A DNA stretch of 64,000 nucleotides from Lentisphaerae bacterium GWF2_57_35 (GCA_001804865.1 MHBK01000061.1:9547-73546); one strand, 5' to 3'; counted from the stretch's first letter, positions 785 through 46,882 are shown. The notes: generated by a model not told the origin, from the letters alone. Program-made: numbers and translations.

Positions 785-846
785 GCCCCACGGATGGCAA
801 AGCGGTCCCACGGATCATCAAGTCTGAGATTTAAGGGTCATGCAAC
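785..846. repeat. REP-like dispersed repeat, family A (GCCCCACGGATGGCAAAGCGGTCCCACGG...TCTGAGATTTAAGGGTCATGCA), copy 1
   Basis: The reverse complement recurs at 4273..4335. The core GGGACCGCTTTGCCATCCGTGGGGC also occurs at 979..1005, ~6618..6650 (degenerate) and 6788..6813. The core contains the inverted repeat CCACGG/CCGTGG. Confidence 0.7.
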
Positions 847-880: not shown

Positions 881-927
881 CTCCCTGCCCGCAACGCTTC
901 GCGTAGCGATGCGCAGGCGGGCTCTTC
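881..927. repeat. REP-like hairpin repeat, family B (CTCCCTGCCCGC-N-GCGGGCAGGGAG palindrome), copy 1
   Basis: Second copy at 32517..32568 in inverted orientation. The stem CTCCCTGCCCGC/GCGGGCAGGGAG is near-perfect in copy 2. Both copies are translated inside spurious ORFs as ...HRYAKRCGQGE... Confidence 0.65.
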
Positions 928-978
928 GTCTTTCTGAAACAGCGATGAAAGGATGACGCTCTGAATACTCTTTTATCC

Positions 979-1005
979 GTGGGACCGCTTTGCCATCCGT
1001 GGGGC
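979..1005. repeat. REP family A core copy (GTGGGACCGCTTTGCCATCCGTGGGGC)
   Basis: Exact or near-exact match to the family A core, in opposite orientation to copy 1. Confidence 0.7.
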
Positions 1006-1033: not shown

Positions 1034-1083
1034 TTTTCCAATCCTTGGAAAAATCGGCGTATCGTTTTCCAATCCTTGGAAAA
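1034..1083 (+). promoter_or_regulatory. Two tandem copies of a 19-bp palindrome TTTTCCAATCCTTGGAAAA (1034..1052 and 1065..1083) upstream of the CpXC gene; candidate operator or dimeric TF sites
   Basis: Direct repeat of a self-complementary 19-mer (TTTTCCAA/TTGGAAAA arms). Centres are 31 bp apart. Located 85-135 bp upstream of the ATG at 1168. Confidence 0.3.
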
Positions 1084-4001: not shown

Positions 4002-4036
4002 GAGGTCGCGGCCAAAAGAAAGCGACAAAGAGTTTT

Positions 4037-4205
4037 AACGCAAAGCTCGCAAAGCCAAGCCGCGCAAAGGCCGCAAAGAAGTCCAGCCGCAGATGGATGC
4101 GATAAAGAATTTGGAAGCCATAAAAGTCACCTAAACCACAAAAAAGAAGAGCCCCTTCCTCTCCTTTGCGACCTCTGCGCAGCTTGGCTTTGCGAGCTTT
4201 GCGTT
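4037..4205. repeat. Large imperfect hairpin with 24-bp perfect inverted arms (AACGCAAAGCTCGCAAAGCCAAGC / GCTTGGCTTTGCGAGCTTTGCGTT) and tandem GCAAAG motifs; intergenic between convergent genes
   Basis: The left arm carries 4 GCAAAG units at ~10-bp spacing. The right arm carries the complementary CTTTGC units. ~120-bp loop. Lies between the DUF2723 gene stop and the aroK stop. Confidence 0.6.
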
Positions 4206-4272
4206 GAAATTCTTCGTTGTGTTCTTTGGTTCTGGAATTTGTGTATAAAGACTTCAGGTCCGCTTCGAAACG

Positions 4273-4335
4273 GTTGCATGACCCTTAAGTCTCAGACTTG
4301 ACGATCCGTAGGACCGCCTTGCCATCCGTGGGGCC
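4273..4335. repeat. REP family A, full-length copy in opposite orientation to copy 1
   Basis: GTTGCATGACCCTTAAGTCTCAGACTTGACGATCCGTAGGACCGCCTTGCCATCCGTGGGGCC is the near-exact reverse complement of 785..846. Confidence 0.7.
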
Positions 4336-6735: not shown

Positions 6736-6787
6736 GGGAGTTTGGCGTTGGCGGTGGGGGAAAATAGGTCCAAATCCCGCGAATCGG

Positions 6788-6813
6788 TGGGACCGCTTTG
6801 CCATCCGTGGGCC
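6788..6813. repeat. REP family A core copy
   Basis: GTGGGACCGCTTTGCCATCCGTGGGCC. A degenerate partner lies at ~6618..6650 (GGCCCCACGGATGAAGAAAGAGACCGCT). Confidence 0.6.
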
Positions 6814-8496: not shown

Positions 8497-10307
8497 ACGT
8501 CGTAGTGGCCGATTACGACATCTTCACAGCGTACGGACACGGCGTCGAATGCTGCTGGAAGGGGTTGATCTCCGGGAAAACGGCGGTCTCCGAAACGGAG
8601 CGCCTGAAGAATCGAAAACCCGGATCTTGGTTTGCGGCGACGAGCGACGAATTGTCGTACGCACACGACGCCTCCCTGGCGGCGCAGATGCTGGAACGCT
8701 TGCTGCCGCCGCTGCACGGACGCCTCCCGCCCGATACGCTCGTGCTGCTGGCCACGACCGCCGGCGAGATCGATCTTCTGGAAAAAAGTTTGCTTAAAGA
8801 AAAGCCGTCCAGGCCTCAGGCGCCCGCGAGTCTTCTGGACGCCGTTACCCGCTGGGTTGGGCTCGAACGCCCGGGACACCTGATCTCGTGCGCCTGCGCC
8901 TCGTCGTCCATGGCGATGACCCTGGCCGCCCATTTAATCTCCCTCGGCCGTGAATCCAGCGTTTTGGTGGCGGCCTGCGACGCGGTGACGGAATTTGTGA
9001 TGGCCGGCTTTGGAACCATGTCGGCCCTTGCGCCTTCGCCGGCGAGACCCTTTCATAAGGACCGCGACGGTTTGAATCTGGGCGATGGCGCCGGCTGGTT
9101 ATGGCTGCTTCGCGAGGATTTCGCTCAAGAACATGCGATCAAGGCAAAAGCCTATCTGACCGGATGGAGCGCGCAGGGCGATTATTACCACATGACGGCG
9201 CCGGACCCCGAGGGGTGCGGACTCAGCCGTGCAATGGATCTCTCTTTGGACATGGCGGGATTGCGTCCGACCCAGGTGGATGCGATTTGCGCGCATGGCA
9301 CGGGAACGCGATATAACGACGACATGGAAATGCACGCCTTCGAACGCGTGCTGGGCCGGCATGCGTGCCCGGTATTTTCGGTCAAAGGCGGCATCGGACA
9401 CACGCTGGGCGCCGCGGGTCTCGTCGAAGCCGCCCTGGCCATCGAGTCGTTGCGTCGCCAACAGGTTCCGCCCAGCATCGGAGCCGATGAGGTGGAGCCT
9501 TTGGGCGGAGGACGGATTTCCAGCAAGGGCCATGATTTATCCAACCCGCGCATCGCCCTGTCCACCAATTCCGGATTTGGAGGAGTCAATACCTCTCTGG
9601 TGGTCGAGCTGCAACGCCCCCAAGAAGTCTCGCCGACCAAAGAGGCCCAGGCCCATTTGATCGCCATGAGCTGGGCCGACGACGAGCAGTGCGGGTTCGT
9701 TCGTCCGGGCTGCGAACCGATGGCGATCTCTCGCGCGCAGGAAAAAGACGGCTCGTTGCTGGCCCGGCCATATAAGAATTGGGGGCGGCTCAGTCCTCTG
9801 TCGAAAAAAATGGTCCACGCCCTGGCGCTGGCCCTGAAAGAAATGGACACGCCTTACAAAATGGGCGGGCCGATTCCGTGGGGGATCGTTAGCGTCAATA
9901 CCTCGGGATGCCAGGCTGACAACGAACGGTATTTCAAGGATTACGCGGAGGCCGGTCGCACCCTAGCCCGCGGGTCGTTGTTTGTCTATACGCTGCCCAC
10001 CAGCCCGATTGCCGAGGCGGCCCTGCATTTTCGCCTGGCCGGTCCGTTGTTTCATGTCGTGCAAGCGCAAGAGGATTACTCGCTCATCCTGAATTGGGCG
10101 GAGAGTTTCTTTGCGGGCGGCGACGCAGAAGGTATGATCGTGGTTTCGACGGAGCAGCCCCGCGTGGTCTGCGGTTTTTTGACGCGAGAAGGGGACGGGA
10201 GGGGCCGCGGTCTCGCGGACCTTGTTCATGGGCCTTTCGCCGCGCGAGAGGCGCCCTTGAATTCCGGAAACGATCGGTTGGAAGCATACTTAAAGCAGTC
10301 TTTATAA
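8493..10307 (+). CDS. Beta-ketoacyl-ACP synthase fused to a C-terminal KS-like domain lacking a catalytic Cys (KS-CLF fusion)
   Basis: N-terminal ~385 aa carry the Cys-His-His triad in canonical motifs (ISCACASS, ICAHGTGT, GIGHTLGAAG). The C-terminal ~215 aa (...IPWGIVSVNTSGCQADNERYF...LPTSPIAEAALHFRLAGPLFHV...) resemble the thiolase-fold CLF-like protein at 39072..39998. ATGA overlap with the thioesterase gene. Confidence 0.75.
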   Translation: MNVVVADYDIFTAYGHGVECCWKGLISGKTAVSETERLKNRKPGSWFAATSDELSYAHDASLAAQMLERLLPPLHGRLPPDTLVLLATTAGEIDLLEKSLLKEKPSRPQAPASLLDAVTRWVGLERPGHLISCACASSSMAMTLAAHLISLGRESSVLVAACDAVTEFVMAGFGTMSALAPSPARPFHKDRDGLNLGDGAGWLWLLREDFAQEHAIKAKAYLTGWSAQGDYYHMTAPDPEGCGLSRAMDLSLDMAGLRPTQVDAICAHGTGTRYNDDMEMHAFERVLGRHACPVFSVKGGIGHTLGAAGLVEAALAIESLRRQQVPPSIGADEVEPLGGGRISSKGHDLSNPRIALSTNSGFGGVNTSLVVELQRPQEVSPTKEAQAHLIAMSWADDEQCGFVRPGCEPMAISRAQEKDGSLLARPYKNWGRLSPLSKKMVHALALALKEMDTPYKMGGPIPWGIVSVNTSGCQADNERYFKDYAEAGRTLARGSLFVYTLPTSPIAEAALHFRLAGPLFHVVQAQEDYSLILNWAESFFAGGDAEGMIVVSTEQPRVVCGFLTREGDGRGRGLADLVHGPFAAREAPLNSGNDRLEAYLKQSL

Positions 10308-10319
10308 AGAGATTCATTT

Positions 10320-11567
10320 GTGAAAATTAAACTCGTCTATCCGCGGTGGCCCAAATTGCCCAATCAACCGGAATTTCATCTGCCGCCGCACGGCCCCGTA
10401 GTTTTTGCCGCGGCGATTCCGCGCGAGCATGAGATTTCGTTTTGCGACGAGCATGTGCAAACGCTGGACTTTGCAGAGTCGGCGGATTTGATTTGCATCT
10501 CCTGCATGCTGACCTGTCAGACGGCCCGGGCCTGGGAGATTGCGGACGCGTATCGGGCGCTGGGGAAGAAGGTGGTCCTTGGCGGCATCGCCACGATGCT
10601 CCACGCGGAGGAAAGCGCGCAGCACGCCGATGCGGTCTTCATCGGCGAAGCGGAGGGTCACTTCGAAAAAGTGTTGGCCGATTTCGAACGGGGCGAGTTG
10701 AAAAAGACCTATAATTTCTTTGGCCAGTGGCCGGACCTGCGCGATGTAGGCCCGGCGCGGCGGGACATTTTAAACCGCGAGGCCTACAACTACCGCGGCG
10801 TGCAAATGGTGGATCTGGTCCATTGCTCCCGCGGCTGCCGCTTCGATTGCTTTCCCTGCTGCGTGGCGTATCTCGGCGGGCAGAAGTTTCGGCCGCGGCC
10901 GTTCGAGCGCGTCATCGAGGAGTTGGAGTCGATCCCGAACAACCGCTTGTTCATTGTAGACAATTCGCTCGCGCAGGACGACGACTGGGAGCGGGAACTT
11001 TTCCGGGCGATCGCGCCGCTGAAGAAAAAATGGGTGTCGCATCCCATCCGCGACAAGGACGATATCCTCGATCTGGCGGCCGAGGCGGGCTGCTGGTATG
11101 TGTATCAGTCCGTCATCGACACCAGCGACTTCATGCGTACGCGCATCAAGAGATATCACGATCGGGGCATCGGCGTGGAGGGCACCATCATTCTCGGCTT
11201 GGACGATCACGACGAAGACTACATCAAGCGCCTGGTCGATTTCCTGCTGGAGTGCCGGCTCGACCTGGCCGAGTTCACGGTCGTGACGCCGTTTCCGCAC
11301 ACGCCCATTCGCGCCAAGATGGAGCGGGAAGGCCGCATCTTGCACAACGACTGGAAGCGTTATACAGCCGGCGAAACCGTCTTTAAACCCGCAAAGATGA
11401 GCGTCGACAAGTTGAACGAAATGTACCAGTACGCGTGGGATACTTTTTATCGCGACGAGCCCAAGGAAATCAAGATGGGCAAGCTGTACCGCCGCGTGCT
11501 GGAAAAGGAAATGGCGGACGGCACGTTCCGGTCCCATCGGGCCACGGGTGGCAAATGGGGCCATTGA
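10320..11567 (+). CDS. B12-binding-domain radical SAM enzyme (class B rSAM)
   Basis: N-terminal Rossmann-like cobalamin-binding region (KIKLVYPRW...DLICISCMLT), then the radical SAM Cx3Cx2C motif (CRFDCFPC). GTG start per the track. Confidence 0.75.
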   Translation: MKIKLVYPRWPKLPNQPEFHLPPHGPVVFAAAIPREHEISFCDEHVQTLDFAESADLICISCMLTCQTARAWEIADAYRALGKKVVLGGIATMLHAEESAQHADAVFIGEAEGHFEKVLADFERGELKKTYNFFGQWPDLRDVGPARRDILNREAYNYRGVQMVDLVHCSRGCRFDCFPCCVAYLGGQKFRPRPFERVIEELESIPNNRLFIVDNSLAQDDDWERELFRAIAPLKKKWVSHPIRDKDDILDLAAEAGCWYVYQSVIDTSDFMRTRIKRYHDRGIGVEGTIILGLDDHDEDYIKRLVDFLLECRLDLAEFTVVTPFPHTPIRAKMEREGRILHNDWKRYTAGETVFKPAKMSVDKLNEMYQYAWDTFYRDEPKEIKMGKLYRRVLEKEMADGTFRSHRATGGKWGH

Positions 11568-11589: not shown

Positions 11590-12957
11590 ATGAAGATCGT
11601 CCTGATTTCAGCCAATCAAACGACGTCGCCCTATCCCGTGTTTCCTCTGGGCGCCTCGGTCGTATCCGCCGCCCTGAAAGCGGCCGGACACGAGGTGCTC
11701 TTCCTCGATGGACTGGCCGATGGAGTCTCGCAGGAAGCGGGTCTGGCGCGCCTGCGCGGACACGATCCCCGGCTGGTTTGCCTTTCGCTTCGCAACATCG
11801 ACAACACCAGCAGCGCCCATGAGGAATGCTATCTGGATGCCGTCGCCGCGCTGGTGGCCGGCGTGCGGACGGTCACACAAGCGCCGATCCTGGTGGGCGG
11901 CGCCGGCTTCTCGTTGATGCCTGAGGCCATCCTGAAACGCCTGGGCGCGGACTACGGCATCGCCGGCGAGGGGGAACGGGCGGTTCTGGAGTTTGTCGCG
12001 CGCCTGGAACGGGGGGAATTTCCGCCTACTTCGATCGTCAGGCCTGCGGCGTTTCTGGCCGAACCGGATATCGGCGCCGCCGATTACGGATTGCCCTGCG
12101 TCGATTATTACGTGGAGCAGGGCGGGGGCATGGTAGGCGTGCAAACCAAGCGCGGTTGTCCGCACGCTTGCGGCTATTGTTCGTATCCGGTCCTTGAAGG
12201 CCGCGCCTTGCGCGCGCGCGATCCCAAAGCCGTGGTGCAGGACATCGAACGTCTGATCGGCGAGCGGGGCATGAAATATTTGTATTTTGTCGATGCCGTC
12301 TTCAACGACTCGCAGGGCCTCTATCGGCAGGTCGTCGAGGAAATGCTGGCCCGCCGCATTCGCATTCCCTGGGTTGCCTTTTTCAAACCGACGCCCATCC
12401 CCGACGATGTCCTGGCCATGATGAAGGCCACCGGCTGGGCGGCCGCGGAAGTCGGTTCGGACGGTACGACCGATGAAACCCTGCGCGGGTTGCACAAGCC
12501 CTTTGCCTGGGCAGACGTGGAGGCCTTTCAAGCGGCCTTGAATCGGCATCGGGTGCCCGTCGCGCATTATTTCATCTTCGGCGGCCCCGGCGAGACGCGG
12601 GCGACCGTGCAGGCCGGCATCGACCATGTCCTGCGCTTGTCCTCCGCCGTACGGTTCGTCTATACCGGCATCCGCGTGCTGCCGGAAACGGATATCGAAC
12701 AAATCGCCCGGCGGGAGGGCTTGCTCGCGCCGGGGCAGTCGCTCTTGGAGCCGGTCTATTATTTCTCGCCGCAGATCGAGCGGGGTTGGCTGGAAAATCT
12801 CCTTCGCGAAAAGCTATCGCCCGATCCGCTGTGCTTTTATCCGCCCGAAAACTTTGCCCTCCGGATTGCCGAGTTTCATCGAAAAGGTTTTATGGGGCCG
12901 TTGTGGGAAATGGCGCTGGGGCATCGACCGCCTCGGAGGATTCGATCCCGTGGATAA
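11590..12957 (+). CDS. B12-binding-domain radical SAM enzyme (second, tandem paralog)
   Basis: MKIVLISANQ... B12-binding fold, then RGCPHACGYCSYP (Cx3Cx2C). GGAG RBS 8 nt before ATG 11590. The track ORF starts at an upstream GTG 11548 overlapping the previous gene. Confidence 0.75.
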   Translation: MKIVLISANQTTSPYPVFPLGASVVSAALKAAGHEVLFLDGLADGVSQEAGLARLRGHDPRLVCLSLRNIDNTSSAHEECYLDAVAALVAGVRTVTQAPILVGGAGFSLMPEAILKRLGADYGIAGEGERAVLEFVARLERGEFPPTSIVRPAAFLAEPDIGAADYGLPCVDYYVEQGGGMVGVQTKRGCPHACGYCSYPVLEGRALRARDPKAVVQDIERLIGERGMKYLYFVDAVFNDSQGLYRQVVEEMLARRIRIPWVAFFKPTPIPDDVLAMMKATGWAAAEVGSDGTTDETLRGLHKPFAWADVEAFQAALNRHRVPVAHYFIFGGPGETRATVQAGIDHVLRLSSAVRFVYTGIRVLPETDIEQIARREGLLAPGQSLLEPVYYFSPQIERGWLENLLREKLSPDPLCFYPPENFALRIAEFHRKGFMGPLWEMALGHRPPRRIRSRG

Positions 12958-13849
12958 CAGTCTTCTAAAAAAACGCGGAAACAATCTGGGCTTCTGGTTT
13001 TTCAAGGCCGCCCTCGATCTCTTTGGGCTGCGCGGCGCTTATGTCCTGCTGGGTTTTGTGGCGGGATACTACTGGCTGTTCGACCGCACCGCGCGACGGA
13101 GCGCGCGCGCCTATTTGCAGCGGCGCTTCCGCGGCCGGTCGGGCTGGGCCGCCCAGCGCGACATCTACCGCCTGTTCTACAGCCAGGGCGTTTCGCTCAT
13201 TGACCGTTACGTCATGGCCATGAAGCCCTCCCTGTTTTCCCTCGGCATTGTGAATTACGAAGCAATCCGCCCGCTCGTGGAAGATCCCCGCCAGGGCTTC
13301 ATCCTGCTGACCTCGCACGTGGGCAACTGGCAGGCCGTGATGCTGGCCCTGGGACGCATGAACCGGCGCGTAAATTTATTGATGCGCACCGAGGAAAACG
13401 AGGCGGTGAATCAATACTTGCGCATTCAGGAAGCCGGCGGGCTCATCGATATCGTCTCGCCGGATTTGCCCTTGGGCGGAGTGCTGGAGTTGACCCAGCG
13501 CATCCAGCGCGCCGAAATCGTCGCCATCATGGGCGACCGGGCTTATACCTCCGACACCGCCGAAATCGTTTTCCTGGGCGACCAAGCCGGCTTTCCGCGC
13601 GGCGCTTTTCATCTGGCCTCGGCCTGGGACTGCCCGGTCGTGGTGATGTTTACCGCCAAAACAGGCCCCTCCGCCTACGACGTCGAAATTGCCGGCGTCA
13701 TCCATCCCGGTCAAACTCCCGGCACCGTCAAGCGCGAGCGCATTTCCCATATGGCGCAGCAGTACGCCGACCTGCTTTCCGCCTATGCCGAGCGACATCC
13801 GTATCAGTTCTATCTTTTTCACGACGTCTGGACTCGCCCGGGCGGATAG
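12950..13849 (+). CDS. LpxL/HtrB-family lipid acyltransferase (LPLAT; ApeJ-like)
   Basis: N-terminal hydrophobic segment, then ILLTSHVGNWQ (HX4D-like acyltransferase motif region) and ...IMGDRAYTSD...VFLGD. GTG start overlapping the upstream stop (GTGGATAA). Start uncertain. Confidence 0.6.
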   Translation: MDNSLLKKRGNNLGFWFFKAALDLFGLRGAYVLLGFVAGYYWLFDRTARRSARAYLQRRFRGRSGWAAQRDIYRLFYSQGVSLIDRYVMAMKPSLFSLGIVNYEAIRPLVEDPRQGFILLTSHVGNWQAVMLALGRMNRRVNLLMRTEENEAVNQYLRIQEAGGLIDIVSPDLPLGGVLELTQRIQRAEIVAIMGDRAYTSDTAEIVFLGDQAGFPRGAFHLASAWDCPVVVMFTAKTGPSAYDVEIAGVIHPGQTPGTVKRERISHMAQQYADLLSAYAERHPYQFYLFHDVWTRPGG

Positions 13850-13869
13850 TTTTGCAGCTTTGAGAGAGA

Positions 13870-13879
13870 GGGGGGGGGG
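13870..13879. repeat. Homopolymeric G10 tract preceded by (GA)4
   Basis: TGAGAGAGAG-GGGGGGGGG-A lies 21 nt downstream of the acyltransferase stop. Confidence 0.8.
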
Positions 13880-13902
13880 AGCTCCAACGCAAGTCCCGCT
13901 TG

Positions 13903-14109
13903 GCCCTTCGACAAGCGCAGGCCAGGCGCATGGGGCAAAACGGGGGCGCGCCATCTTGGTTCATTGGCGGCGTTGGCGCAGGCCGGGCGGACAAAAGTCC
14001 TGCCCGGCCTGCGCCGCCTTGCCACTGAACCAAGCTGACGCGCCCCCGTTTTGGGGCCGATCGGAATCGGCCCGGCCCCATGCGCCTGGCCTGGCTTGTC
14101 GAAGGGCCA
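13903..14109. repeat. ~207-bp long near-perfect inverted repeat (nested arms A/B/C around a GGGCGGACAAAAGTCCTGCCC centre); candidate structured RNA or MITE-like element
   Basis: Arm A 13903-13937 versus 14076-14109 (one indel). Arm B AAAACGGGGGCGCG versus CGCGCCCCCGTTTT (perfect). Arm C ~13951-13988 versus 14006-14039 (imperfect). An additional hairpin CCCCATGcCAGTaaACTGgaCATGGGG lies at 14122-14148. Confidence 0.65.
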
Positions 14110-14176
14110 AGCGACAGCCACCCCATGCCAGTAAACTGGACATGGGGTTCCATTGCGGTAGTTGTTTTCTGTGGAG

Positions 14177-14204
14177 CCGGGGCGACTCGCCCCGGTCTTT
14201 TCTG
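14177..14204 (+). terminator. Rho-independent terminator ending the locus A operon (CCGGGGCG-ACT-CGCCCCGG + TCTTTTCT)
   Basis: Perfect 8-bp GC stem, 3-nt loop, U-rich tail on the + strand. Confidence 0.55.
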
Positions 14205-14253
14205 TCGGAACCTTTTTCTTTCGTAGCCGCCGGCGTAAGCCGGTGGCCTTTCA

Positions 14254-14469
14254 TTAGCCTTGCGCTGACAAGACGTTGCCCAGCAGGCGGCGGTATTCCT
14301 GCACCCATTTTCCGGCCAACACCTTCTTGCCAATCAGATAAAAAGCGTTTCCCAATTCATCCGAGCTTTCCAGCAAAGCCCGCGAATCGTTCAGGGCCAA
14401 CCCTTGGGCGTATTGAGTCTGTTTGGCGTCAATGAAGTCGTCGATGTTCACGATGTCTTGCAAGGTCAT
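14254..14469 (-). CDS. Hypothetical small protein (71 aa)
   Basis: ORF with genome-typical codon usage. No recognisable family. Confidence 0.3.
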   Translation of the reverse strand: MTLQDIVNIDDFIDAKQTQYAQGLALNDSRALLESSDELGNAFYLIGKKVLAGKWVQEYRRLLGNVLSAQG

Positions 14470-14694
14470 AGGTACAGCCTTTGTTGGGTTTCACGCCCGC
14501 GGAGGCGCACTGCGCTTCTCTGGCTGTTCCCAAGCAGGGTAGGCGCCAGTCCTCGTACCTCCAAGGAACCGACGAAAGACGCTTCATCAAGAAAGGTATT
14601 GCCTGCTGCAAAGAAACCTAGTATGCATCTAGCATAAATTTCAAAAAATGAAAAATCAGGAAGTGTTGAACGCATGAAAAGGAGGATGGGTTTG

Positions 14695-17600
14695 ATGAAA
14701 TGGTGCACTAGAGTTGTGATGGGCCTCCTATTTCTGGCGGCGGGAACCCGGCTGGTCGCGGATATTCATTATGTATCGCCGTCCGGGGACAACATTTCGC
14801 CGTATACGAGTTGGGCGACGGCCGCCCGGCTGGTGTCCAATGCCGTCTCCGTTGCCGGCGCGGGCGACACGGTGTTGGTCAGCAATGGGCTCTATTTCGT
14901 CTCCTCCGAAATCCTGCTGAAACAAGACGTTACTTTGCAGAGCGTCCAGGGTCCCGCCGCCACGATCCTGGATGGCAGCAACAAATGCCGGGTGGTTCGC
15001 ATGGCGGCGTCCAACGCCGTTTTGGATGGGTTTACCATTCAGCATGGGTTCGTCAATAACGGCGGGGGGGGCGGAGTTTGTCTCGAAGGAACCGGGGTGG
15101 TTCAAAACTGCGTCATTCGCGAAAACAAGGCTTCATCGGGTTATTATGCCGTAGGCGGGGGCGGGGTCTACTGCAACCGGGGCGGTACGGTCCGTTACTG
15201 CGAGATCCGGGATAACGAGGGCGCCTCCAGCGGCGGAGGGGTTCACTGCTACCTGGGCGGTCTGGTGCAGAATTGCGCGATAATTGGCAACGCCACGACG
15301 CTTTACGGTTCCGACGGCGGCGGCATCTATTTTGCACAAGGGGGCCGCGCGGAGAATTGCACGATCGGGGGAAACACGGCCTATGGCAGCGGAGATGGCA
15401 TCTACTGTTATGTGCAGGGCACGCTGGAAAACTGCATTATTTATCACAATGGCGACGAGAACTGGACGCCGGGGTGGAGCAACCGCATGACCTACTGCTG
15501 TACGACGCCCGCGGTGGGCGGCGCCGGCAATTTTACGAACGACCCGCGATGTCTGGCGCCGGTAGACGGTAATTTCCGGTTGTGCATGGACTCGCCGTGC
15601 CGGGATGCCGGCCTCCAGCGGCCGGAGTATCTCACGGCCCTGGATCTGGACGGCCGGCCCCGCGTGGCGGGGGCGGGCGTGGATCTGGGCGCCTACGAGG
15701 CCGGCCCGCTCCAGGCCGATTTTTCGGCCACTCGGCGGGTGGGGTTGGTTCCCTTGGATGTCGTCTATATGGCGGCGGTCTCGGCCACGAACGTGGACGG
15801 CCTCTGGTATGCCTGGGATCTCGACGGCGACTCGACCGTGGATATGGTCGGCTATGGTCTGGCCTGTGTGACCACGACCTATGAAACCATCGGCTGGCAT
15901 TCGGCCGCGCTGACGGTCGCCAATGCCGCCGGGGAAACCTCCCGCAGCGTAAAGCCGGCGTACTACGTGCAGGCCGGACCGACGGATGTTTACGTGGCGA
16001 CGAATGGCGGTGCGGCGTGGCCCTACGCCGACTGGAGCATGGCGGCGCGTTCGCTCCAGGCGGCGGTGGATGCCGGTGTAACCGGCACGCGGGTTTGGGT
16101 GTCGAATGGGCTGTACGTGCTGAACCAGCCTCTGACCCTTGCTCATGGCATTTATGTGAGCAGCATGAATGGCTTGGAAAGCACAACCCTCACGGGAACG
16201 GGCGGGGTGCGTTGCCTGTACTTGAATCATCCGCAGGCGGCGGTCGATGGGTTCACCATCACGAACGGCTATTCCGCTATGGGCTCGGGCGCCTATTTCG
16301 CGGAAGGCGGAGGCTCCGTGCGCCGTTGCCGGTTGGCCGGAAATCGCTCCTATGGATACGACGGCGGCGGGGCGGTCTATTTTGCGGCCGCCGGGCTGGT
16401 CGAAGATTGCGAGATCGTGGGCAATCGAGCGGAGTACCGGGGCGGGGGCGTAGCCTTCGTTAACGGCGGGATGGTCGATCGGTGCGTGATTTATGGAAAT
16501 CGAAGCTCCCAAGGCGGCGGCATCTATCTTTCCCAAGGAGGCTTGCTGCGAAATTCGCTGGTCTATGGCAATGCGGCTTCCTATGGAGGCGGAGCGTCCT
16601 CTTACAGCGGCGGTTTGATCGAGAATTCAACTCTTTGCCGCAATAGCGCCTCCGTGGTCGGAGGTGGGATTCAGGGGAACTGGGGCGGGATGCTGAGAAA
16701 CTCCATCGTATATTACAACGCGGCGCCGGAAGACGCCAATTGGTCGACGGAGGACAGTGGCCTGAGCTTCACCAATTGCTGCACCTTTCCGACCGCGGAC
16801 GGAGACGGCAACCAAGCCGGACCGCCGGGATTCCTCGATGAAGAGGAGTTCAATTTTGCCCTGATGCCGGACTCGCCTTGCCGCAACGCCGGCCGATACG
16901 AAACTTGGATGGAGGGGGCGACGGATGTGCGCGGTCAGGCGCGAGCGACAGAGAGTGCGGTGGATATGGGCGCCATGGAAACCGGCCCTTTGCAGGTGGA
17001 TATACGCGGCATGAACCTCACGGGACCCGCACCGCTGGCCGCCTGCTTCCAAACGGTTTGCTCGGGGACGAATACGACCATTGTGCGCTACGATTGGGAC
17101 CTGGACGGCGACGGCGTCATGGACTGGAGCGGGGCGGACGGTTCTGTGACGACAAATATTTTTACGACGGCCGGGCATTACGGGGTCATTTGCCAGGCGG
17201 TCAACTCCGCCGGCGAGACCGCGCGAGTCGCGAAGGCTTCCGGTTATGTGAAGGTGGGACCGGCTGCCGCCTACGTGGCCGCGTCGGGGGCGCACGAATA
17301 TCCCTACGACACCTGGGCCAAGGCGGCCACCAACATTCAGGCGGCCATTGGTGTCGGAACCTATGGAACGGTCGTCTGGGTCGCCAATGGAACCTATGTT
17401 TCCGGCGCGCGTCTGGCCGTTACCAATCACGTGACGCTGAAAAGCGTGAATGGGGCGGGTTGCACGATCGTTCAAGGCGAGGGCATGGACTCCTGCGTCT
17501 ACATGGACCAGGCGGAGGCTACGGTAGAGGGCTTCACGATCCAGGGCGGGTCTGGCAACGGCGGCGGCGTGCATATCCAGAGCGGCGGCCGTGTGCGGTA

Positions 17601-20600
17601 CTGCCGGGTGACCGGCAACGAGGCCTACTACGGCGCGGGGATCTACTGTGTGGCGTCCGCGGTGGTGGAGCGTTGTGAGGTTGACGGCAACAAGGCTGCG
17701 CAGGATGGCGGGGGCATCTATACCGAGTGGGGCCATAACCAAATACTGGATTGCGTGATCCGGAACAACGAGGCCGGCTCCTGCGGCGGCGGAGTGTATG
17801 CGGACGAGGGAACCCTTCTGCGCAATTGCGTGCTCGCTCGAAATCGCGGCGGTTATGGCGGCGGCGGATACGTGAAGGATGACGTGCAGGTGGATTCCTG
17901 CACCGTGACGGACAATCAAGGTTCCTACAAAGGCGGCGGCCTTTATTGGGATTCCAAGGTGGAGATTCAGAACTCCATTCTCTATTTCAACCGGTGCGAT
18001 TCCTCGAACGGCGGCTCCAACTATTTTTGCAATAGCTGCCAGTGGGACGGATTGGAATATATTCATATCGCCAACACCTGCCTGGCGCCGGCCCTGGCCG
18101 GCGACGGGAACACCGATGCGGATCCTTTGTTTCTGGATGTGGAAAACGAGGCGTATTCCTTGCAGCCGGGATCTCCTTGCGTCAATGCGGGCGTCCATGA
18201 GGCCTGGATGGTCGGGGGCTATGACATCGAGGGCTACGATCGCGTGATTCAAGGCGCGGTGGACATGGGCGCTTATGAATTTGGTCCTCTGCGCTGCTCG
18301 TTTCGGGCTGACCTCCGCGAGGGGACGGCGCCGATGGCGGTCGTCTTCACGTCCTTCGTTGCCGGAACCAACCTGGCCGGCCTGTACTACAAGTGGGATT
18401 TCAATGGCGATGGCGTGGCGGACCAGGAAGGCTATGGGCTGCAAGAAGTCACCAACCGTTACAACGACTTCGGCACGTTTGCGCCGAGACTCGTCGTGGC
18501 GGGCGCGGACGCCGAGACCCAGTCCTGCGAACTGCCCGGGGCCGGCATTCGTGTCGCTCCGGCCGCTTTGTATGTCGATCCCTCCGGCGCGGCCATTTAT
18601 CCCTACACCAACTGGAGCATGGCGGCGCGCGATATCCAGACGGCGGTGGATCAGAGCGCGCGGGGTTCGTGCGTGTGGGTCTCGAATGGGGTGTATACGC
18701 TGTCGGCGAGCGTGACGATCCCTCGCGCCATGACGGTTCGCAGCCTGAACGGCGCCGAGGCCGCGACGATTCATGGCAACGACGCCGTCCAGTGCGTTTC
18801 CCTGCTCGCCACCGGGGCCACGATCAGCGGATTTACCCTCACGGGTGGGCGGGGCCATTTGGGCGGCGGCGTTTACTGCGGGCGCGGCGCCGTGGTGGAT
18901 CGGTGCCGGGCGATGAGCAACCGCGCCTATCATGCGAGCTCCACGCTCGTATGGGGCGGCGGCGTGTATTGCGAAGGCGGCACGGTGCGCTATTCCGCCA
19001 TCGAAGACAACCGTACGGCCGAGGAAGGGTATGGCGGGGGCGGTTACATAACGAGCAGCGGTTTGGTGGAGCACTGCACGATCCTGCGCAATGAGGGCGG
19101 TTATGGCGGCGGCCTGTATGTAACCGAAGGGTCGGTGGTCCGAAATTCGATCGTGGCCGGAAATCTGGCGCTTAACTCCGACTACAACGAATCGGGCGGG
19201 GGCGGCGTCTATTGTTCGACGGAAAGCGCGATCGAGAATTGCACCATTGTAAATAACCGGGCGAATCGCTCCGGCGCAGGCGTCCTGCTCTACTACAATG
19301 GATACGTTCATAACAGCATCATCTGGTCCAATCAGGGTGCTAATGTCTACATCTTCGGCGGCATGGGATATGTGGACCATACTTGTAGCACCCCGCTGCC
19401 GGCAGGGAATGGAAATATCGCCGCGGACCCGCTGTTCGCCGATCTGGAAACCCTCGATGTCCGACTGCAACCCGGTTCGCCGTGCATCAACGTGGGAACC
19501 AACCAGGCCTGGATGGCGAAGGATACGGATTATCAGGGCTACGACCGGATCATCAACGGGCGCGTAGATCTGGGCGTCTACGAATTCTCGCCGGCCAACA
19601 CCGTGCGCGTGTCTGGTCACACGCCGGCCGGCAACGCGTTGCCGCCGTTGGGCTCGTTGCTGATTCATTTTCAATACGAAATGGACCCCGCCTCGTTTTC
19701 GATCGCGGAGGACATCCTCCGGTTCGAGGGTCCCTCCGGCGCTATCTCGGCAACCCAGGCCGCGTGGCTGTCGAGCCGTACCCTGCAGTTGACGTTTCCG
19801 ACCCAGACGGAATTGGGAAGCTACGAGCTGGTCCTGGGATCGCAAATGTCCGACCGCGAGGGCCGGGGTTTGGATCAGGACGGCGACGGCGTGCCCGGAG
19901 AAAGCCCGGACGACGAATACCTGGCCGCTTTCCGTTTCCCTGCTTTCTGGGTTATGAGCCATGAACCGAATGGCGAACGCACGGAAGCGGTGGACTCCCT
20001 GCGCATCCGTTTCAGTCAACCGGTTCAGCCGGGCGACTGCACCGCCGCCGATGTGACGCTGAACGGTCCGCTGGGATCCATTCCCATCGCCAACGACCCC
20101 CTCCGCGTGAGCAACGATCTTTATGAAGTTGCCTTTCCCCGGCAGGTCGCGGGCGGAACGTATGCGCTGACGGTCGGCCCGGAGATTTGGAGCGCCGACG
20201 GCGAATTGCTGGATCAGGATGGGGACGGCATGCCGGGTGAACCGGAACACGACCGGTACGAAGGATGCTTTACCATCGTGGACAATGCAGGTCCGCGGAT
20301 TGTCAGCGTCCTGCCGGCGTATGCCCGTGCCGCCGTCAGCAACCTGGTGATTCGATTCAGCGAGCCCATGTCGCCGGAACACTTCACCACAGAGGACCTG
20401 ACCCTGTCCGGTCCGGATGACTACATCGTCCTGGAGCAGATAACGGCGATCGCGCCGGACGAATTCCAGGTTTCGTTCCCCGCCGCAACGGACGCCGGAA
20501 CCTATTCGTTTTCCATCGGCCCGGATGTGCGCGATGTGGCGGGCAATATGATGGATCAGGACCAGGATGGACAAAAAGGCGAAGACTACGACGATGTTTA

Positions 20601-23600
20601 TTATGGCGAGTGGGTCCTGGATCGAACCTGTCCGAGGGTGACCTGGGCAAATCCGTCGGCAGGGGAGTTGTTTGACGCGCTTACACGCGTGGACGTTCAA
20701 TTCTCCGAGGAGATGGACTTTTTGCAGATGACGCCCAACCTTGCAACGTGCATCGGCCCATATGGCGTAGTGCAGGCCACGAATATCGTGGCCGTCTCGA
20801 CGGATTCCGCGCGGTTCTATTTCCCTGCAACTGAAGCGAGTGGGGAACTTGTTTTCCGATTGGCGGAAAGTGCGTGCGATCTGGCGGGAAATCCGTTGGA
20901 CCAGAATCAAAACGGAGTGGGCGGGGAGCCCGGGGACGCTTTCAGCCGGACGTACGAACAGAGCCTGCCGGATCTCGTGATCGGCGGCTTGTCCGGTCCG
21001 ACGGAAGCCTGGCCGGAGCAAGCGGTGGACGTGACCTGGATGGCGACCAATGCCGGGCCGGGCTGGGCGGCCGGCCCCTGGCATGACGTGGTTCGCATCT
21101 CCCCCACCGCCCAGCCGGGGCCCAACGACCTCGTACTGGCGTCGCTGGAGTTTGACGGGGAATTGGAGCCGGACGGATCGTATACGCGCGTCTGGTCCGG
21201 ACGCTTGCCGGCCTTGGCGGAAGGCCGCTGGTGGCTTCACGCGACCCTCGATGCCTCCAATCGTCTGGCGGAGGGCGGAGGTTCGTTCAACAATAGACTG
21301 ACGACAACCCATCCCCTCTGGATCACCTCGCGGCCCGGCCCGGATCTGCGCGTGGACGAGCTGGAAGCCGCCGAAGCCATGATCGGCGGCTGGAAGTACC
21401 GGGTGACGTGGCGTGTCGCGAATCATGGAACGGCGGGCACGAGCGCGGCCGGCTGGCAGGATCGCGTTTATCTGTCGCCGCAGCCGGTTTTCGATTCGTC
21501 GCAAGCCGTGGCCGTCAGCCCGCCCATCCGCAATCCGGATTTCCTGGCCTCGGGAGAGTCGTATGAACAGGAGGCCGAGATCGTCATTCCGTTCGATACG
21601 GGATACGGCGACTGGTATTTAATGGTAAGGGCCGACGACCAGAATCAGGTTGAGGAGTTCGGGGCCGAAACCAATAATGCCAAAGGCTTGGCGGTGTCGA
21701 TTACGGGACCCAACGTCAGCGACGAACCCTATCTCTCGGTGGTCTCGATCGAGGCCCCGGCGGTTCTTCGGGCCGGGCAAAGACCCGACATTACGTGGAC
21801 CATCCGCAACACGGGCGGGCAGACCATCCTCAACGGTTGGGCCAGCGGCACGGGTTGGGATGACGGCCTGGCTATATCTCCCGATCCGATTTATGACGCG
21901 AGCGATTACTGGCTCGGTTCGCATAATTACTGGAACGGCTGTCCGCTGGCCCCAGGGGAATCGTATACGACGACCGGCAAGCCGGAGCATCCCATTCCCG
22001 CCTGGGCCGGCTCTTATTACTTGATTGTCGTACCGGACACCCATTTTGGCGCCAATGCCGCATTTGGCGCGAGCATGGTCGATCGAAGCTTCGGCGTATT
22101 CCCCGTTACGATTGAGGCGGGGGGCGGATACTTGGATTTGGTGGTGACGAATATTATTACGCCTCCGTTCTTAAGCCCCGGGCAAACGACGCGGATCGGC
22201 TGGCAGGTACGGAATATCGCCGTGGGCAGCTTGGCCGGCAAGTCGTGGTGCGATCGGATTTTCCTGTCGGACGACGGGTCGTTGAACGGCGCTTTGTTGC
22301 TGGCGGAAAAACAGGGACCCTCCTCCTCCATAGAGGGATATGATGCGTCCGCCGGCATTCAAGTGCCGGCCGATATGGAACCCGGCGCTTACTATCTTGT
22401 GGCGGCGGCCGATGTACGGAACGAGCTGACGGAAACAGACGAGAACAACAATGTGGGCATTTCCACCCAGACGGTTCACGTCGTCCGCCGCGAGGTGGAC
22501 CTGACGATTTCCACCGCCGCCGCGCCTTCCGCGGCGACGTCCGGCGGTCTTCTGAACGTTCAATGGACGACGCTCAATCGCGGCCGGGATGAGCTGGCCG
22601 ACGACGTATGGCAGGATGCCTGGTATCTCTCGACCCATCCCGAATTCCATCCGGTTCAGGCCCGATGCCTGGGACGTTTTAAGCATGAGCAAACGCTGGC
22701 GGCGGGCGGGGAAATGACGAACGCCGCATCCGTTGCCGTTCCTTTCGATGTCGAGGGCGCGTATTACGTCCATGTCGTGTGCGACAGCGCCGGCGCGGTC
22801 TTCGAATATCAGGGCGAGACCAACAACGTGTACCGGCTGCCCGGCTTGCTGACCGTGAATGGGGATGCGGCGGACTTGACCGTGCTGAATATCCAATGCC
22901 CGACCCAAGCAGCAGCAGGTCAAAGCATGAGTATCCTTTGGGGGATCACGAATGCCGGGAATCTCGCGGCGGAAGCGCCTTGGATGGACGCGGTTTATCT
23001 GTCCACCAACGAAGTTTGGAGCCGCCAGAACGCGCGGTTGGTCTGGTGCGGCACGCAGACCAACCGGCTGGCGGCCGGCGGCATGAAGGAGCAAGCGGGC
23101 GTGCTCGTTTCCTTGGCGGACGGCATCTCGGGCCTGTATTACGTTTATGTGGAGACGGACTCCCGCCAGGAGGTCTACGAGCGCGGCGCCGAGCCGAACA
23201 ACATCGTGCGTTCCCTTCAGCCTGTGACGGTGGTCGATTATTTGCCCGACCTGGAAATCGTGTCTTCTTTCGTGACCGGCGAGCCGGCGGCGGGGGAGCT
23301 GGTGAGCGTAAGTTGGACGATAGCCAACCGGGGCGAAGATTATGTGACCGCGCCTTGGGATGAGGCGATCTATCTTTCAACCGATGCGGTTTGGAGTGTG
23401 GAGGAGGACTTGCTGCTGGCGCGTTACACCCACGGCGACGAAGTGGCGGCCGGCGCGACCTCGGCGTGTCCGGTGGAGGCGACGTCGGTTCGTCTGCCCG
23501 CCCGGATCGGCGGCGTGCGATATCTGCTGATCGTAACAGATCCCGATGGGGCGCGGGCGGAGCTGTGCGAAACCAATAACGTGGCCGTTGTCTCGACGCT

Positions 23601-30925: not shown

Positions 30926-30977
30926 GTCGATTCGGGGTGCATCTCGACACGGCCGCAGATTGTATGGGGAAAAGAAA

Positions 30978-31043: not shown

Positions 31044-31205
31044 GCTGTTGCGGCCGTGTCAGGATGCACCCGCCGATTCGCCCCTCATCACTTCGGAATC
31101 GACATGCGAACTGGCATGGGACAATATCCCCGCTCCGATCAGGAGGGGGCCGGTTGCATCGATCGTCGAATCGTGAGCGCCAGAGTTAAGCGTGAGGAAT
31201 CCAAC

Positions 31206-44298: not shown

Positions 44299-44312
44299 GG
44301 AGTCCAGTCCCC

Positions 44313-46880: not shown

Positions 46881-46882
46881 TC

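What the first reader, a model, noticed from the sequence alone, without database searches (positions are those of the whole stretch)
13870..14204. G10 tract plus ~207-bp nested long inverted repeat and terminator at the 3' end of the KS-rSAM-acyltransferase operon
Immediately after the acyltransferase stop comes (GA)4G10. Then a long near-perfect hairpin (arms 13903-13937/14076-14109; AAAACGGGGGCGCG/CGCGCCCCCGTTTT; imperfect inner arms; GC-rich tip). Then a second small hairpin (14122-14148). Then a canonical intrinsic terminator (14177-14204). A >200-nt stable RNA stem in a 3' UTR is unusual. It could be a MITE, a 3'-UTR-derived sRNA, an RNase-protective structure or a recombination hotspot. 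The G10 tract is a classic slipped-strand site.
Basis: seen in the sequence. Interest (0 to 1): 0.55.

Follow-up and report, generated by a model that had tools for sequence, protein, structure and literature searches.

The report
Multi-copy hairpin repeat carrying a terminator
The G-run, the 217-base hairpin, the small hairpin and the terminator are one roughly 340-base non-coding repeat, present in at least six copies in this uncultured groundwater bacterium and missing from the same spot in a relative, so it is an inserted MITE-like element rather than a control structure of this operon.

Summary
After the acyltransferase stop (13849) come (GA)4 and G10 (13862-13879), a 217-nt near-perfect hairpin (13897-14113, folding z = -15.7), a 27-nt hairpin (14121-14147) and an intrinsic terminator (14176-14204).

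These are not separate features of this operon's 3' UTR. They form one directional unit that recurs at 84-98% identity at unrelated loci of the same genome, 'Lentisphaerae bacterium GWF2_57_35' from Rifle groundwater. I found six full copies and one hairpin-deleted copy. A relative with a 74%-identical acyltransferase has only 18 nt between the two convergent stop codons, against 404 nt here. So the unit is an insertion.

Five of six copies with known context sit just after a co-oriented gene and supply its terminator. Pairing is kept by compensatory changes: 13 pairs against 4.5±1.5 in shuffles. No Rfam family matches, and I saw no terminal inverted repeats, target duplications or transposase.

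The outer stem carries a motif, CCCTTCGACAAGCTCAGG, that also occurs in intergenic hairpins of Chloroflexota, Fibrella and three classes of Proteobacteria, and in contigs classed as viral.

G-run length differs between copies (2-10) but not between assemblies of this locus. I file it as a new member of the MITE/REPIN-like repeats. Interest is moderate.

The parts
12950..13849 (+). Upstream flanking gene: LPLAT/LpxL-type acyltransferase, the last gene of the thioesterase-KS-rSAM-rSAM-acyltransferase operon. It is not part of the element.
   Evidence: Pfam Lip_A_acyltrans. Exact 299-aa match to called genes and to A2X46_17765 of Lentisphaerae bacterium GWF2_57_35.
13862..13879 (+). 5' purine tract of the repeat unit: (GA)4 followed by G10. 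A G-rich run of variable length occupies this position in every copy.
   Evidence: The alignment of copies shows G10, G6, G8, G5, G3 and G2 at this position. It is G10 in all three assemblies of this locus.
13880..13896 (+). Conserved unpaired leader, AGC(GC)TCCAACGCAAGTCC.
   Evidence: Conserved in all copies. Unique in the window.
13897..13936 (+). 5' outer arm of the long hairpin. It holds the cross-phylum motif CGCTTGGCCCTTCGACAAGC(G/T)CAGG at 13897-13921.
   Evidence: Motif matches in other phyla. Invariant in five aligned copies.
13937..14053 (+). Inner hairpin: AAAACGGGGGCGCG / CGCGCCCCCGTTTT arms, a variable mid-stem, and the apex GGCGCAGGCCGGGCGGAC-AAAA-GTCCTGCCCGGCCTGCGCC.
   Evidence: Eight pairs carry compensatory double changes between copies.
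14054..14073 (+). Side hairpin (GGGCCGAT-CGGA-ATCGGCCC) that branches from the 3' arm only.
   Evidence: Present in every full paralogous copy, so the element is asymmetric.
14075..14113 (+). 3' outer arm of the long hairpin, carrying the reverse complement of the motif.
14121..14147 (+). Small hairpin CCCCATGCCAGT-AAA-CTGGACATGGGG.
   Evidence: Two compensatory pairs in copy L035.
14148..14175 (+). Conserved tail, TTCCATTGCGGTAGTTGTTTTCTGTGGA.
14176..14204 (+). Intrinsic terminator: a 9-bp GC stem with a 3-nt loop, then a T-rich tail. It forms the 3' end of the unit.
   Evidence: The same hairpin occurs in L016, L040 and the partial copy L037b. L035 has a compensated variant. The full L037 copy has a different hairpin and no T-run.
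14226..14247 (.). Extra GC hairpin between the element and the next gene. It belongs to the 404-nt stretch that is absent from the relative.
14254..14469 (-). Downstream flanking gene: a convergent 71-aa ORF, conserved as a 70-aa gene in the relative. It is not part of the element.

Best explanation
Window 13862-14204 is one copy of a dispersed, non-coding, structured repeat family of about 340 nt; one subfamily has about 80 nt more at the 5' end. The host is 'Lentisphaerae bacterium GWF2_57_35'. The unit is a non-autonomous insertion element of the MITE/REPIN kind.

**Shown:**
- It is multi-copy within one genome.
- It is absent from the orthologous site of a relative.
- It has a fixed directional order: G-rich run, leader, 217-nt branched hairpin, small hairpin, tail, terminator.
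- Its helices are kept by compensatory change.
- It usually lies 13-110 nt after the stop of a co-oriented gene.

**Inferred effect on the host:** the unit is transcribed as the tail of the upstream operon. There it forms a stem of about 100 bp and then ends the transcript at its own terminator. It therefore acts as a portable 3'-end module. The long double-stranded stem would be an RNase III substrate or a block to 3' exonucleases.

**Inferred spread:** the unit is copied in trans by an enzyme encoded elsewhere that recognises folded single strands, by a REP/RAYT-like or IS200/IS605-like route. Three things point that way: there are no inverted repeats at the termini, there are no target duplications, and two inverted copies of a short invariant motif form the base of the hairpin. 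The mobilising enzyme is unknown.
For: **Copies with different flanks.** L016, L035, L037, L039 and L040 are 84-98% identical to the window unit over 300-320 nt. A further copy underlies the spurious ORF P0001 = A2X46_02495.

**Same genome.** Neighbouring proteins of L016, L035, L040 and L037 are A2X46_18525, _18945, _16730 and _07215. The window acyltransferase is A2X46_17765. All belong to Lentisphaerae bacterium GWF2_57_35.

**Empty site.** In L163 and L164 (acyltransferase 74% identical, same KS-rSAM-rSAM-acyltransferase order, same convergent 70-aa gene) the two stop codons are 18 nt apart. In the window they are 404 nt apart.

**Structure.**
- Folding z-score of -15.7.
- 97.6% of cells are paired.
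- 13 pairs have changes on both sides, against 4.5±1.5 in shuffles (0 of 500 reach the observed value) and at most 3 when partners are slid.
- Copy L040 has seven compensated pairs and none broken.

**Terminator and context.** The terminator scan finds the hairpin in the window and in L035. The element lies after a co-oriented gene in the window, L016, L035, L039 and L040, but not in L037.

**No promoter or RNA family.** No sigma-70-like promoter lies upstream. No Rfam family matches.

**Palindrome instability.** L037:10053-10158 has lost the hairpin at a CATG microhomology. L035 lacks 22 nt of the 3' arm.
Against: - **No transposition signature.** Conserved non-palindromic sequence extends beyond both arms, so the hairpin arms are not terminal repeats. 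I saw no consistent flanking direct repeats or fixed target sequence (by eye).
- **No mobilising gene.** No transposase, RAYT or reverse transcriptase turned up in the window ORFs tested or next to the copies.
- **Distant empty site.** The empty site comes from a fairly distant relative, so a deletion there is not formally excluded. No within-species presence/absence polymorphism was seen.
- **Incomplete census.** The copy count rests on an exact 19-mer scan, so it is a lower bound.
- **No expression data.** Transcription, termination and RNase III cleavage are untested.
- **Alternative to selection.** Compensatory change in a DNA palindrome can also arise by arm-to-arm templated repair, or by a single conversion tract. 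It does not prove selection on an RNA.
- **Weak orientation bias.** Five of six co-oriented gives p of about 0.11 (own calculation, one-sided binomial).
Confidence: 0.72

Rival explanations
1. A family of structured non-coding RNA genes. The roughly 300-nt RNA, with a branched long hairpin, a small hairpin and its own terminator, is the functional product. The copies are paralogous genes, possibly spread as transcript-shaped retrocopies that run from a G-rich 5' end to the terminator U-tract.
For: - The unit is strictly directional and ends in an intrinsic terminator.
- The asymmetric side hairpin and the internal loops are conserved in all copies.
- There is covariation in the inner stem, the small hairpin and the terminator.
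- G·U-type columns outnumber A·C-type columns 6 to 2 on the + strand (counted). This is weak.
- The boundaries resemble a transcript: a variable 5' G-run and a 3' T-run.
- The L035/L037 subfamily shares an extra upstream module of about 80 nt that could hold a promoter.
Against: - No conserved promoter is present. In the window and in L016 conservation begins 12-13 nt after the upstream stop codon, so the upstream sequence is coding DNA.
- No Rfam family matches.
- The single-sequence folds do not agree on a closing helix.
- The element is absent from the relative's orthologous locus.
- The exact apex and tail patterns had no match in viral contigs.
- Outside this genome the whole unit was not seen, and the genome and metagenome scans used patterns from the outer arm only.
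Confidence: 0.15
2. A locus-specific 3'-UTR structure of the KS-rSAM-acyltransferase operon, acting as an mRNA stabiliser or regulator.
For: - It lies directly after the last gene of the operon and before a terminator.
- The fold is very stable.
Against: - The same unit follows unrelated genes: a C-methyltransferase, a Glu/Gln-tRNA synthetase, a HAD-like gene and a membrane protein.
- The orthologous operon in a relative has no such structure; only 18 nt separate the stop codons.
Confidence: 0.04
3. The G10 tract is a phase-variation (contingency) switch.
For: - It is the longest homopolymer in the window.
- G-run length differs between paralogous copies, from 2 to 10 G.
Against: - The tract lies after the stop codon, inside a repeat unit. 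No downstream co-oriented gene or promoter spacer is available for it to affect.
- It is G10 in all three assemblies of this locus.
Confidence: 0.03
4. An assembly artefact, namely a fold-back chimera created at a palindrome.
For: - Several assemblies break inside the element: L002 and L004 at the apex, L005 after the small hairpin, and L039 in the 3' arm.
- The L001 variant lacks the side hairpin and has an odd 3' arm, which may be a local mis-assembly.
Against: - The same asymmetric structure (side hairpin, internal loops) is present in the window and L004, and in the four full paralogous copies inside 63-205 kb contigs (L016, L035, L037, L040).
Confidence: 0.02

Closest known systems
REPINs (REP doublets forming hairpins, mobilised by RAYT transposases; described in Pseudomonas; from my own knowledge)
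   Same: - Non-coding, intergenic and multi-copy.
- Two inverted copies of a short conserved motif form the base of a long hairpin.
- No terminal-repeat or target-duplication signature.
- Probably acted on as folded single strands.
- The motif-bearing outer stem is invariant, while the sequence between the motif copies varies.
   Different: - The hairpin is 217 nt rather than about 100 nt.
- The unit also carries non-palindromic modules: leader, small hairpin, tail and terminator.
- No GTAG-type 5' tetranucleotide is present.
- The motif is shared across phyla rather than being species-specific.
- Only 6-8 copies are known so far.
- No RAYT has been identified.
Correia elements (CREE) of Neisseria and similar bacterial MITEs such as ERIC/IRU, RUP and BOX (from my own knowledge)
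   Same: - Small non-autonomous repeats inserted next to genes and co-transcribed with them.
- They fold into long RNA hairpins. Correia hairpins are cut by RNase III.
- They can supply promoter or terminator activity.
- They cause spurious ORF calls.
   Different: - Correia elements have 26-bp terminal inverted repeats, a TA target duplication and an IHF site.
- Here the repeats are internal, and no target duplication was seen.
- This unit has a built-in intrinsic terminator and a strict orientation.
IS200/IS605-derived palindrome-associated transposable elements (PATEs; from my own knowledge)
   Same: - No terminal inverted repeats and no target duplications.
- Hairpins near the ends, and strand-specific architecture.
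   Different: - No constant tetra- or pentanucleotide lies 5' of the left end.
- No TnpA or TnpB was found nearby.
- No match to Rfam at E ≤ 1; Rfam includes the HEARO family, which I recall as the IscB omega-RNA.
Cross-phylum hairpin motif (G)CCCTTCGACAAGCTCAGGG(C), which translates as PFDKLR / LSLSKG in spurious ORFs
   Same: - The outer arms of the element carry this motif. The match is exact in L035 and L037 and has one mismatch in the window.
- Like most instances, it is intergenic, and about a third of instances have an inverted partner.
   Different: - Elsewhere the motif is a stand-alone mini hairpin or a short doublet of 20-60 nt.
- Here it forms the base of a much larger composite unit.
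- I found no paper or Rfam family for the motif.

Membership tests
MITE (miniature inverted-repeat transposable element) | Small (under about 500 bp) and non-coding | tested here: met
   The unit is about 340 nt. Only spurious ORFs cross it, and none has a Pfam family.
MITE (miniature inverted-repeat transposable element) | Several dispersed copies in one genome, with unrelated flanks | tested here: met
   Six full copies and one deleted copy lie in Lentisphaerae bacterium GWF2_57_35.
MITE (miniature inverted-repeat transposable element) | Presence/absence at orthologous sites | tested here: met
   The relative (L163/L164) has 18 nt between the stop codons, against 404 nt in the window. The relative is distant (74% amino-acid identity).
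MITE (miniature inverted-repeat transposable element) | Inverted repeats at the very termini | tested here: not met
   Conserved sequence extends about 35 nt (5') and about 90 nt (3') beyond the hairpin arms, and it is not palindromic.
MITE (miniature inverted-repeat transposable element) | Target-site duplication flanking each copy | tested here: not met
   No direct repeat is shared across copies at the boundaries. Only a doubtful GCCGTT occurs at L016 (inspection).
MITE (miniature inverted-repeat transposable element) | A related autonomous IS element with matching ends | not testable with these tools
   The whole genome could not be searched. No transposase was found in the window ORFs or neighbouring ORFs that I tested.
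REP / REPIN | Inverted doublet of a short conserved motif forming a hairpin, in an intergenic position | tested here: met
   The motif lies at 13897-13921, with its reverse complement at 14089-14113.
REP / REPIN | Cognate RAYT (Y1 transposase) gene in the genome, flanked by the repeats | not testable with these tools
   The genome was not available as a whole.
REP / REPIN | Tens to hundreds of copies per genome | tested here: inconclusive
   Only 6-8 copies were found, but the search needed an exact 19-mer.
Intrinsic (Rho-independent) terminator | GC-rich stem-loop directly followed by a T-run on the sense strand | tested here: met
   At 14176-14196 there are 9 pairs (8 G-C) and a 3-nt loop, with the tail CTTTTCTGTC. 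The hairpin is conserved or compensated in four other copies.
Any Rfam RNA family | Score at or above the family's gathering threshold | tested here: not met
   Only generic hairpin matches to miRNA precursor models appeared, far below threshold (53.9 bits against 168).
Independent sRNA gene | Own promoter upstream of a defined 5' end | tested here: not met
   No sigma-70-like site was found, and the upstream sequence is coding DNA in two copies. Promoters of this phylum may differ from the consensus scanned.
Phase-variable homopolymer (contingency locus) | Tract inside a coding region or a promoter spacer | tested here: not met
   G10 starts 21 nt after the stop codon, and the next gene is convergent.
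Phase-variable homopolymer (contingency locus) | Length heterogeneity at the same locus | tested here: inconclusive
   The tract is G10 in three assemblies, which may share the same reads. Raw reads were not available.

The most novel reading that the evidence does not exclude
The element is not just selfish DNA. It would be a functional structured RNA or single-strand module built around a hairpin-loop motif, G-CCCT[TCGACAAGCTC]AGGG-C. This motif is conserved nearly base for base in Chloroflexota, Bacteroidota, Alpha-, Beta- and Gammaproteobacteria, a PVC bacterium and contigs classed as viral. Such conservation would imply an undescribed cross-phylum factor that reads the loop: a mobilising enzyme, a nuclease or an RNA-binding protein. 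The Lentisphaerae unit would be a large composite elaboration of that system. It might spread as a transcript-shaped copy running from the G-run to the terminator.
Probability: 0.12. Interest if true: 0.75.

Novelty: new member of a known kind. Interest (0 to 1): 0.4.

Why it matters
- **Annotation.** Public gene calls place spurious 'hypothetical proteins' across the element: a 186-aa ORF in ENA scaffold_747 and the 83-aa A2X46_02495 in GenBank.
- **Assembly.** Several metagenome assemblies break exactly inside the hairpin, so this repeat family fragments MAGs of this lineage.
- **Biology.** It is an example of a portable 3'-end module, a long stem plus a terminator, inserted between convergent genes in a little-studied PVC bacterium.
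- **Open lead.** The invariant outer stem carries an 18-26-nt motif shared by intergenic hairpins in at least four phyla and in head-gene modules of contigs classed as viral. I could find no description of it. If it marks a common mobilisation or RNA-processing system, it would be worth a dedicated census.

Tried and rejected
- **Rfam.** I scanned the region at E ≤ 1, eight motif-bearing loci at gathering score and six more at E ≤ 0.1. The results were one tRNA, generic miRNA-hairpin matches and a weak AaHKsRNA41 match. I rejected all of these as family assignments.
- **Other copies in the window.** Five sub-patterns with up to 3 mismatches found none.
- **blastn of the hairpin** against plasmids and phage genomes found nothing.
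- **Viral contigs.** The apex and tail patterns found nothing.
- **Translated search** with the hairpin-encoded peptide found only one spurious ORF, P0001. Its contig could not be fetched.
- **Literature searches** for the motif as DNA or peptide strings returned only unrelated primer or peptide matches.
- **A closing helix** (CGCAA at 13888-13892 with TTGCG at 14153-14157) is predicted by RNAalifold, but it is invariant and is not recovered in single-sequence folds. I did not claim it.
- **tRNA-like, ribozyme, group II intron, attC and retron readings** were considered and dropped. None had an Rfam match, none fitted the sequence on inspection, and no reverse transcriptase or integrase lies nearby.
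- **Proteins next to the cross-phylum motif.** Clustering ORFs within 2.5 kb in 127 loci found only phage head genes (portal, capsid, connector) and no mobilising enzyme. In a Moraxella plasmid the motif lies beside a DDE transposase, which I judged uninformative.
- **Transposases in the window.** The ten further ORFs I tested (nine of 154-216 aa and two longer ones in or beside the low-GC island) include none.

Full report
**1. The observation**

- The acyltransferase ends with TAG at 13847-13849. Its real start is GTG at 12950: the 299-aa product matches called genes exactly.
- Twelve bases after the stop come (GA)4 (13862-13869) and G10 (13870-13879). This is the only homopolymer of 9 or more in the window.
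- The long inverted repeat spans 13897-14113.
  - The outer arms hold two blocks of 20 and 19 nt that are 100% complementary.
  - The inner arms are 91% complementary.
  - A perfect 14-nt apex pair surrounds a GGAC-AAAA-GTCC tip.
  - A 20-nt side hairpin (14054-14073) branches from the 3' arm only.
- As RNA, 13850-14215 folds at -264.9 kcal/mol, against -167±6 for shuffles (z = -15.7). The other strand gives z = -18.8.
- A 27-nt hairpin (14121-14147) and a terminator-like hairpin follow. The terminator has 9 pairs, 8 of them G-C, at 14176-14196, and then a T-rich tail.
- The flanking genes are convergent. Upstream is the operon of thioesterase, KS, two B12-radical-SAM enzymes and the acyltransferase. 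Downstream is a 71-aa ORF on the minus strand (14254-14469).

**2. It is a repeat unit, not an operon-specific structure**

The 64-kb window holds no second copy. A scan of public metagenome contigs with a 19-mer from the arm gave 28 loci.

- Twenty-three are chance matches in coding DNA.
- Five (L016, L035, L037, L039, L040) carry the whole stretch at 84-98% identity, with entirely different flanks.

The conserved block is larger than the hairpin. It runs in a fixed order:

1. a G-rich run;
2. the leader (T)AGCGCTCCAACGCAAGTCC;
3. the long hairpin with its side branch;
4. the small hairpin;
5. the tail TTCCATTGCGGTAGTTGTTTYTTTGGAG;
6. in most copies, the same GC hairpin plus T-run.

So every item in the finding belongs to one unit of about 340 nt. 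L035 and L037 share a further 80 nt or so upstream.

A translated search found one more copy under a spurious GenBank ORF, A2X46_02495.

**3. The copies lie in one genome**

Exact protein look-ups place the neighbours of L016, L035, L040 and L037, and the window's acyltransferase, in one MAG: 'Lentisphaerae bacterium GWF2_57_35' from Rifle groundwater. The TPA MAG 'Verrucomicrobia bacterium' (DCZ95_ tags) holds the same proteins; I take it to be GCA_003489865.1, which also carries this locus (L005). That genome therefore has at least six full copies. It also has one derivative (L037:10053-10158) that lost the long hairpin at a CATG microhomology. L039 is a probable further copy.

**4. It is an insertion**

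The closest relative found has an acyltransferase 74% identical (JGI contig Ga0620842_0005286; loci L163 and L164). It has the same KS-rSAM-rSAM-acyltransferase order and the same convergent 70-aa gene. Its two stop codons are 18 nt apart, against 404 nt in the window. The structure is therefore not a conserved part of this operon's 3' end.

**5. Where the copies sit**

| Copy | Upstream gene | Arrangement |
|---|---|---|
| Window | acyltransferase | co-oriented |
| L016 | C-methyltransferase | co-oriented |
| L035 | Glu/Gln-tRNA synthetase | co-oriented |
| L039 | HAD-like gene | co-oriented |
| L040 | membrane protein, then a solo copy of the terminator hairpin | co-oriented |
| L037 | nadE | divergent; the element lies between nadE and a 773-aa ORF |

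In the five co-oriented cases the unit begins 13-110 nt after the stop codon. In the window, L016 and L035 the next gene is convergent.

Five of six co-oriented is suggestive only (p about 0.11, my own binomial calculation). No sigma-70-like promoter precedes any copy. In the window and in L016, conservation starts within 12-13 nt of the stop codon.

**6. Structure is maintained**

I scored the RNAalifold consensus on five full copies.

- 124 pairs are predicted, and 97.6% of cells are paired.
- 13 pairs have changes on both sides. Shuffles give 4.5±1.5, and none of 500 reaches 13. Slid partners give at most 3.
- Copy L040 alone has seven compensated pairs in the inner stem and none broken.
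- L035 has two compensated pairs in the small hairpin, and its terminator hairpin is compensated too.
- The 38-bp outer stem never varies in these five copies, although the copy under P0001 has a variant arm.

These patterns fit selection on pairing, with sequence constraint on the outer stem. Arm-to-arm templated repair, or a single conversion tract, could give similar patterns in a DNA palindrome. The persistence of the side branch and the internal loops argues against simple arm homogenisation.

A 5-bp closing helix proposed by RNAalifold is invariant and is not recovered by single-sequence folds. I do not claim it.

**7. What it is not**

- No Rfam family matches; only sub-threshold generic hairpin hits appeared.
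- There are no matches in plasmid, phage or viral collections.
- The hairpin arms are not at the termini, and no consistent target duplication or fixed target sequence flanks the copies. The classical cut-and-paste MITE signature is therefore not met.
- No transposase or reverse transcriptase was found in the ORFs tested.
- It is not an assembly artefact. The same asymmetric structure recurs in independent assemblies and in paralogues.
- The palindrome does break assemblies. L002 and L004 end at the apex, L005 ends after the small hairpin, and L039 ends in the 3' arm. The L001 variant may be partly mis-assembled.

**8. The G-run**

A G-rich run sits at the same position in every copy, but its length varies: G10, G8, G6, G5, G3 and G2. 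It is mutable over evolutionary time, as expected for a homopolymer. At this locus it is G10 in three assemblies. It lies after a stop codon, with no gene or promoter for it to switch. I see no case for phase variation.

**9. A cross-phylum motif in the outer stem**

I scanned one genome per species with the 20-mer CGCTTGGCCCTTCGACAAGC. About one match is expected by chance (my calculation: 596 Gb × 2 strands / 4^20). Nine loci came back, in Dehalococcoidia, two other Chloroflexota, three Fibrella species and Novosphingobium.

- All nine sit in hairpin repeats.
- Eight continue with TCAG, as do copies L035 and L037 of the element.

The 18-mer CCCTTCGACAAGCTCAGG occurs in at least 120 IMG/VR loci.

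- The consensus there is gCCCTTCGACAAGCTCAGGGcgaacgg.
- 94 of 138 instances have no inverted partner within 300 nt. The motif can therefore stand alone, as a 5-bp stem (GCCCT/AGGGC) closing an 11-nt loop.
- In about 25 of these loci it lies just after the major capsid gene of HK97/GTA-like head modules.

A typical doublet also matches unannotated intergenic sites on plasmids of Sphingobium, Moraxella osloensis, Polaromonas, Comamonas, Novosphingobium and Methylotuvimicrobium. It does not match E. coli genomes or the phage genome collection. I found no paper or Rfam family for it. Sequences printed only in figures cannot be searched. From memory, translations of this motif (PFDKLR......LSLSKG) are common among 'hypothetical proteins'; I did not test that.

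**10. Most likely mechanism**

*Shown:* the unit is a multi-copy, lineage-specific, directional, structured insertion that ends in a terminator.

*Inferred, effect on the host:* it is transcribed as the tail of the upstream gene. It folds into a stem of about 100 bp, which would be a substrate for RNase III or a block to exonucleases. It then stops transcription, insulating the convergent genes from each other.

*Inferred, spread:* the absence of terminal repeats and target duplications, the strong single-strand structure and the inverted doublet of an invariant motif resemble REPIN/RAYT or IS200/IS605-type elements more than DDE-type MITEs. The enzyme is unknown.

*Main rival:* a family of functional structured RNAs (15%). 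It is not excluded.

**11. Verdict**

The operon-specific interpretation is rejected. The MITE-type alternative is supported in the broad sense. I class the element as a new member of the known kind 'small non-autonomous structured repeats of bacteria'. The cross-phylum motif remains an unexplained lead.

Noticed in passing
window 13897-13921 and 14089-14113; L006-L014; L043-L162; plasmid hits H1-H34: The motif CCCTTCGACAAGCTCAGG(G) is conserved almost base for base in intergenic hairpins of Chloroflexota, Fibrella, three classes of Proteobacteria and this PVC bacterium. It also occurs in at least 120 IMG/VR loci. It often stands alone as a 5-bp stem closing an 11-nt loop. I found no Rfam family or paper for it.
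   Followed up: partly
L048 and about 25 other IMG/VR loci: In HK97/GTA-like head modules the motif sits directly after the major capsid gene, in the order portal, capsid, motif, head-tail connector. This is a typical place for a 3' stabiliser or attenuator.
   Followed up: partly
window 785-815(-), 975-1005(+), 4304-4334(+), 6783-6813(+); L037:10219-10258: A second repeat family, ATCCGTGGGACCGCTTTGCCATCCGTGGGGC. Two of its copies form the arms of the 98%-complementary inverted repeat at 763-1027. It is also present elsewhere in the same genome.
   Followed up: partly
window 881-908 and 32514-32579; L037 about 10290-10345: A third repeat family, CTCCCTGCCCGCAACGCTTCGCGTAGCG. It occurs once inside the 763-1027 hairpin and once as a 66-nt palindrome.
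   Followed up: partly
window 4015-4227: A long imperfect inverted repeat (67-nt arms, 85% complementary, CAAAG-rich) lies directly after the TMEM260-like glycosyltransferase gene.
   Followed up: no
window 30935-31071: Another inverted repeat (23-nt arms, 91% complementary) lies just after the stop of the 5402-aa ORF (14674-30882). With it, the window holds five long hairpins in 64 kb, or about one per 13 kb.
   Followed up: no
window 1034-1053 and 1065-1084: Two exact copies of TTTTCCAATCCTTGGAAAAA, 31 nt apart. They look like paired operator sites.
   Followed up: no
window 44000-48000 (ORFs 45480-46880 and 46835-47485): A low-GC island (0.46-0.51, against about 0.60 elsewhere) holds an AAA_21 (AbiEii-like) ATPase followed by an RloB-like protein. 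This gene pair is typical of anti-phage defence loci.
   Followed up: partly
L001:3779-4339; P0001 (A2X46_02495): Public annotations call spurious 'hypothetical proteins' (186 aa and 83 aa) across copies of the element.
   Followed up: yes
L002, L004, L005 and L039 contig ends: Four independent metagenome contigs end inside the element, two of them exactly at the hairpin apex. The palindrome breaks de Bruijn assemblies of this lineage.
   Followed up: yes
L040:460-492: A solo copy of the element's terminal hairpin (GGAGCCGGGACGACCCCGTCCCGG plus a T-run) lies directly upstream of a full copy. This suggests either clustered insertion or a remnant of an older copy.
   Followed up: partly
L166:2501-2563 (Moraxella osloensis plasmid NZ_CP014237.1): In 15 Moraxella plasmids the motif doublet was found. 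In the one examined it lies about 40 nt upstream of a 339-aa DDE transposase gene. I could not tell whether it is part of that IS element or its target.
   Followed up: partly
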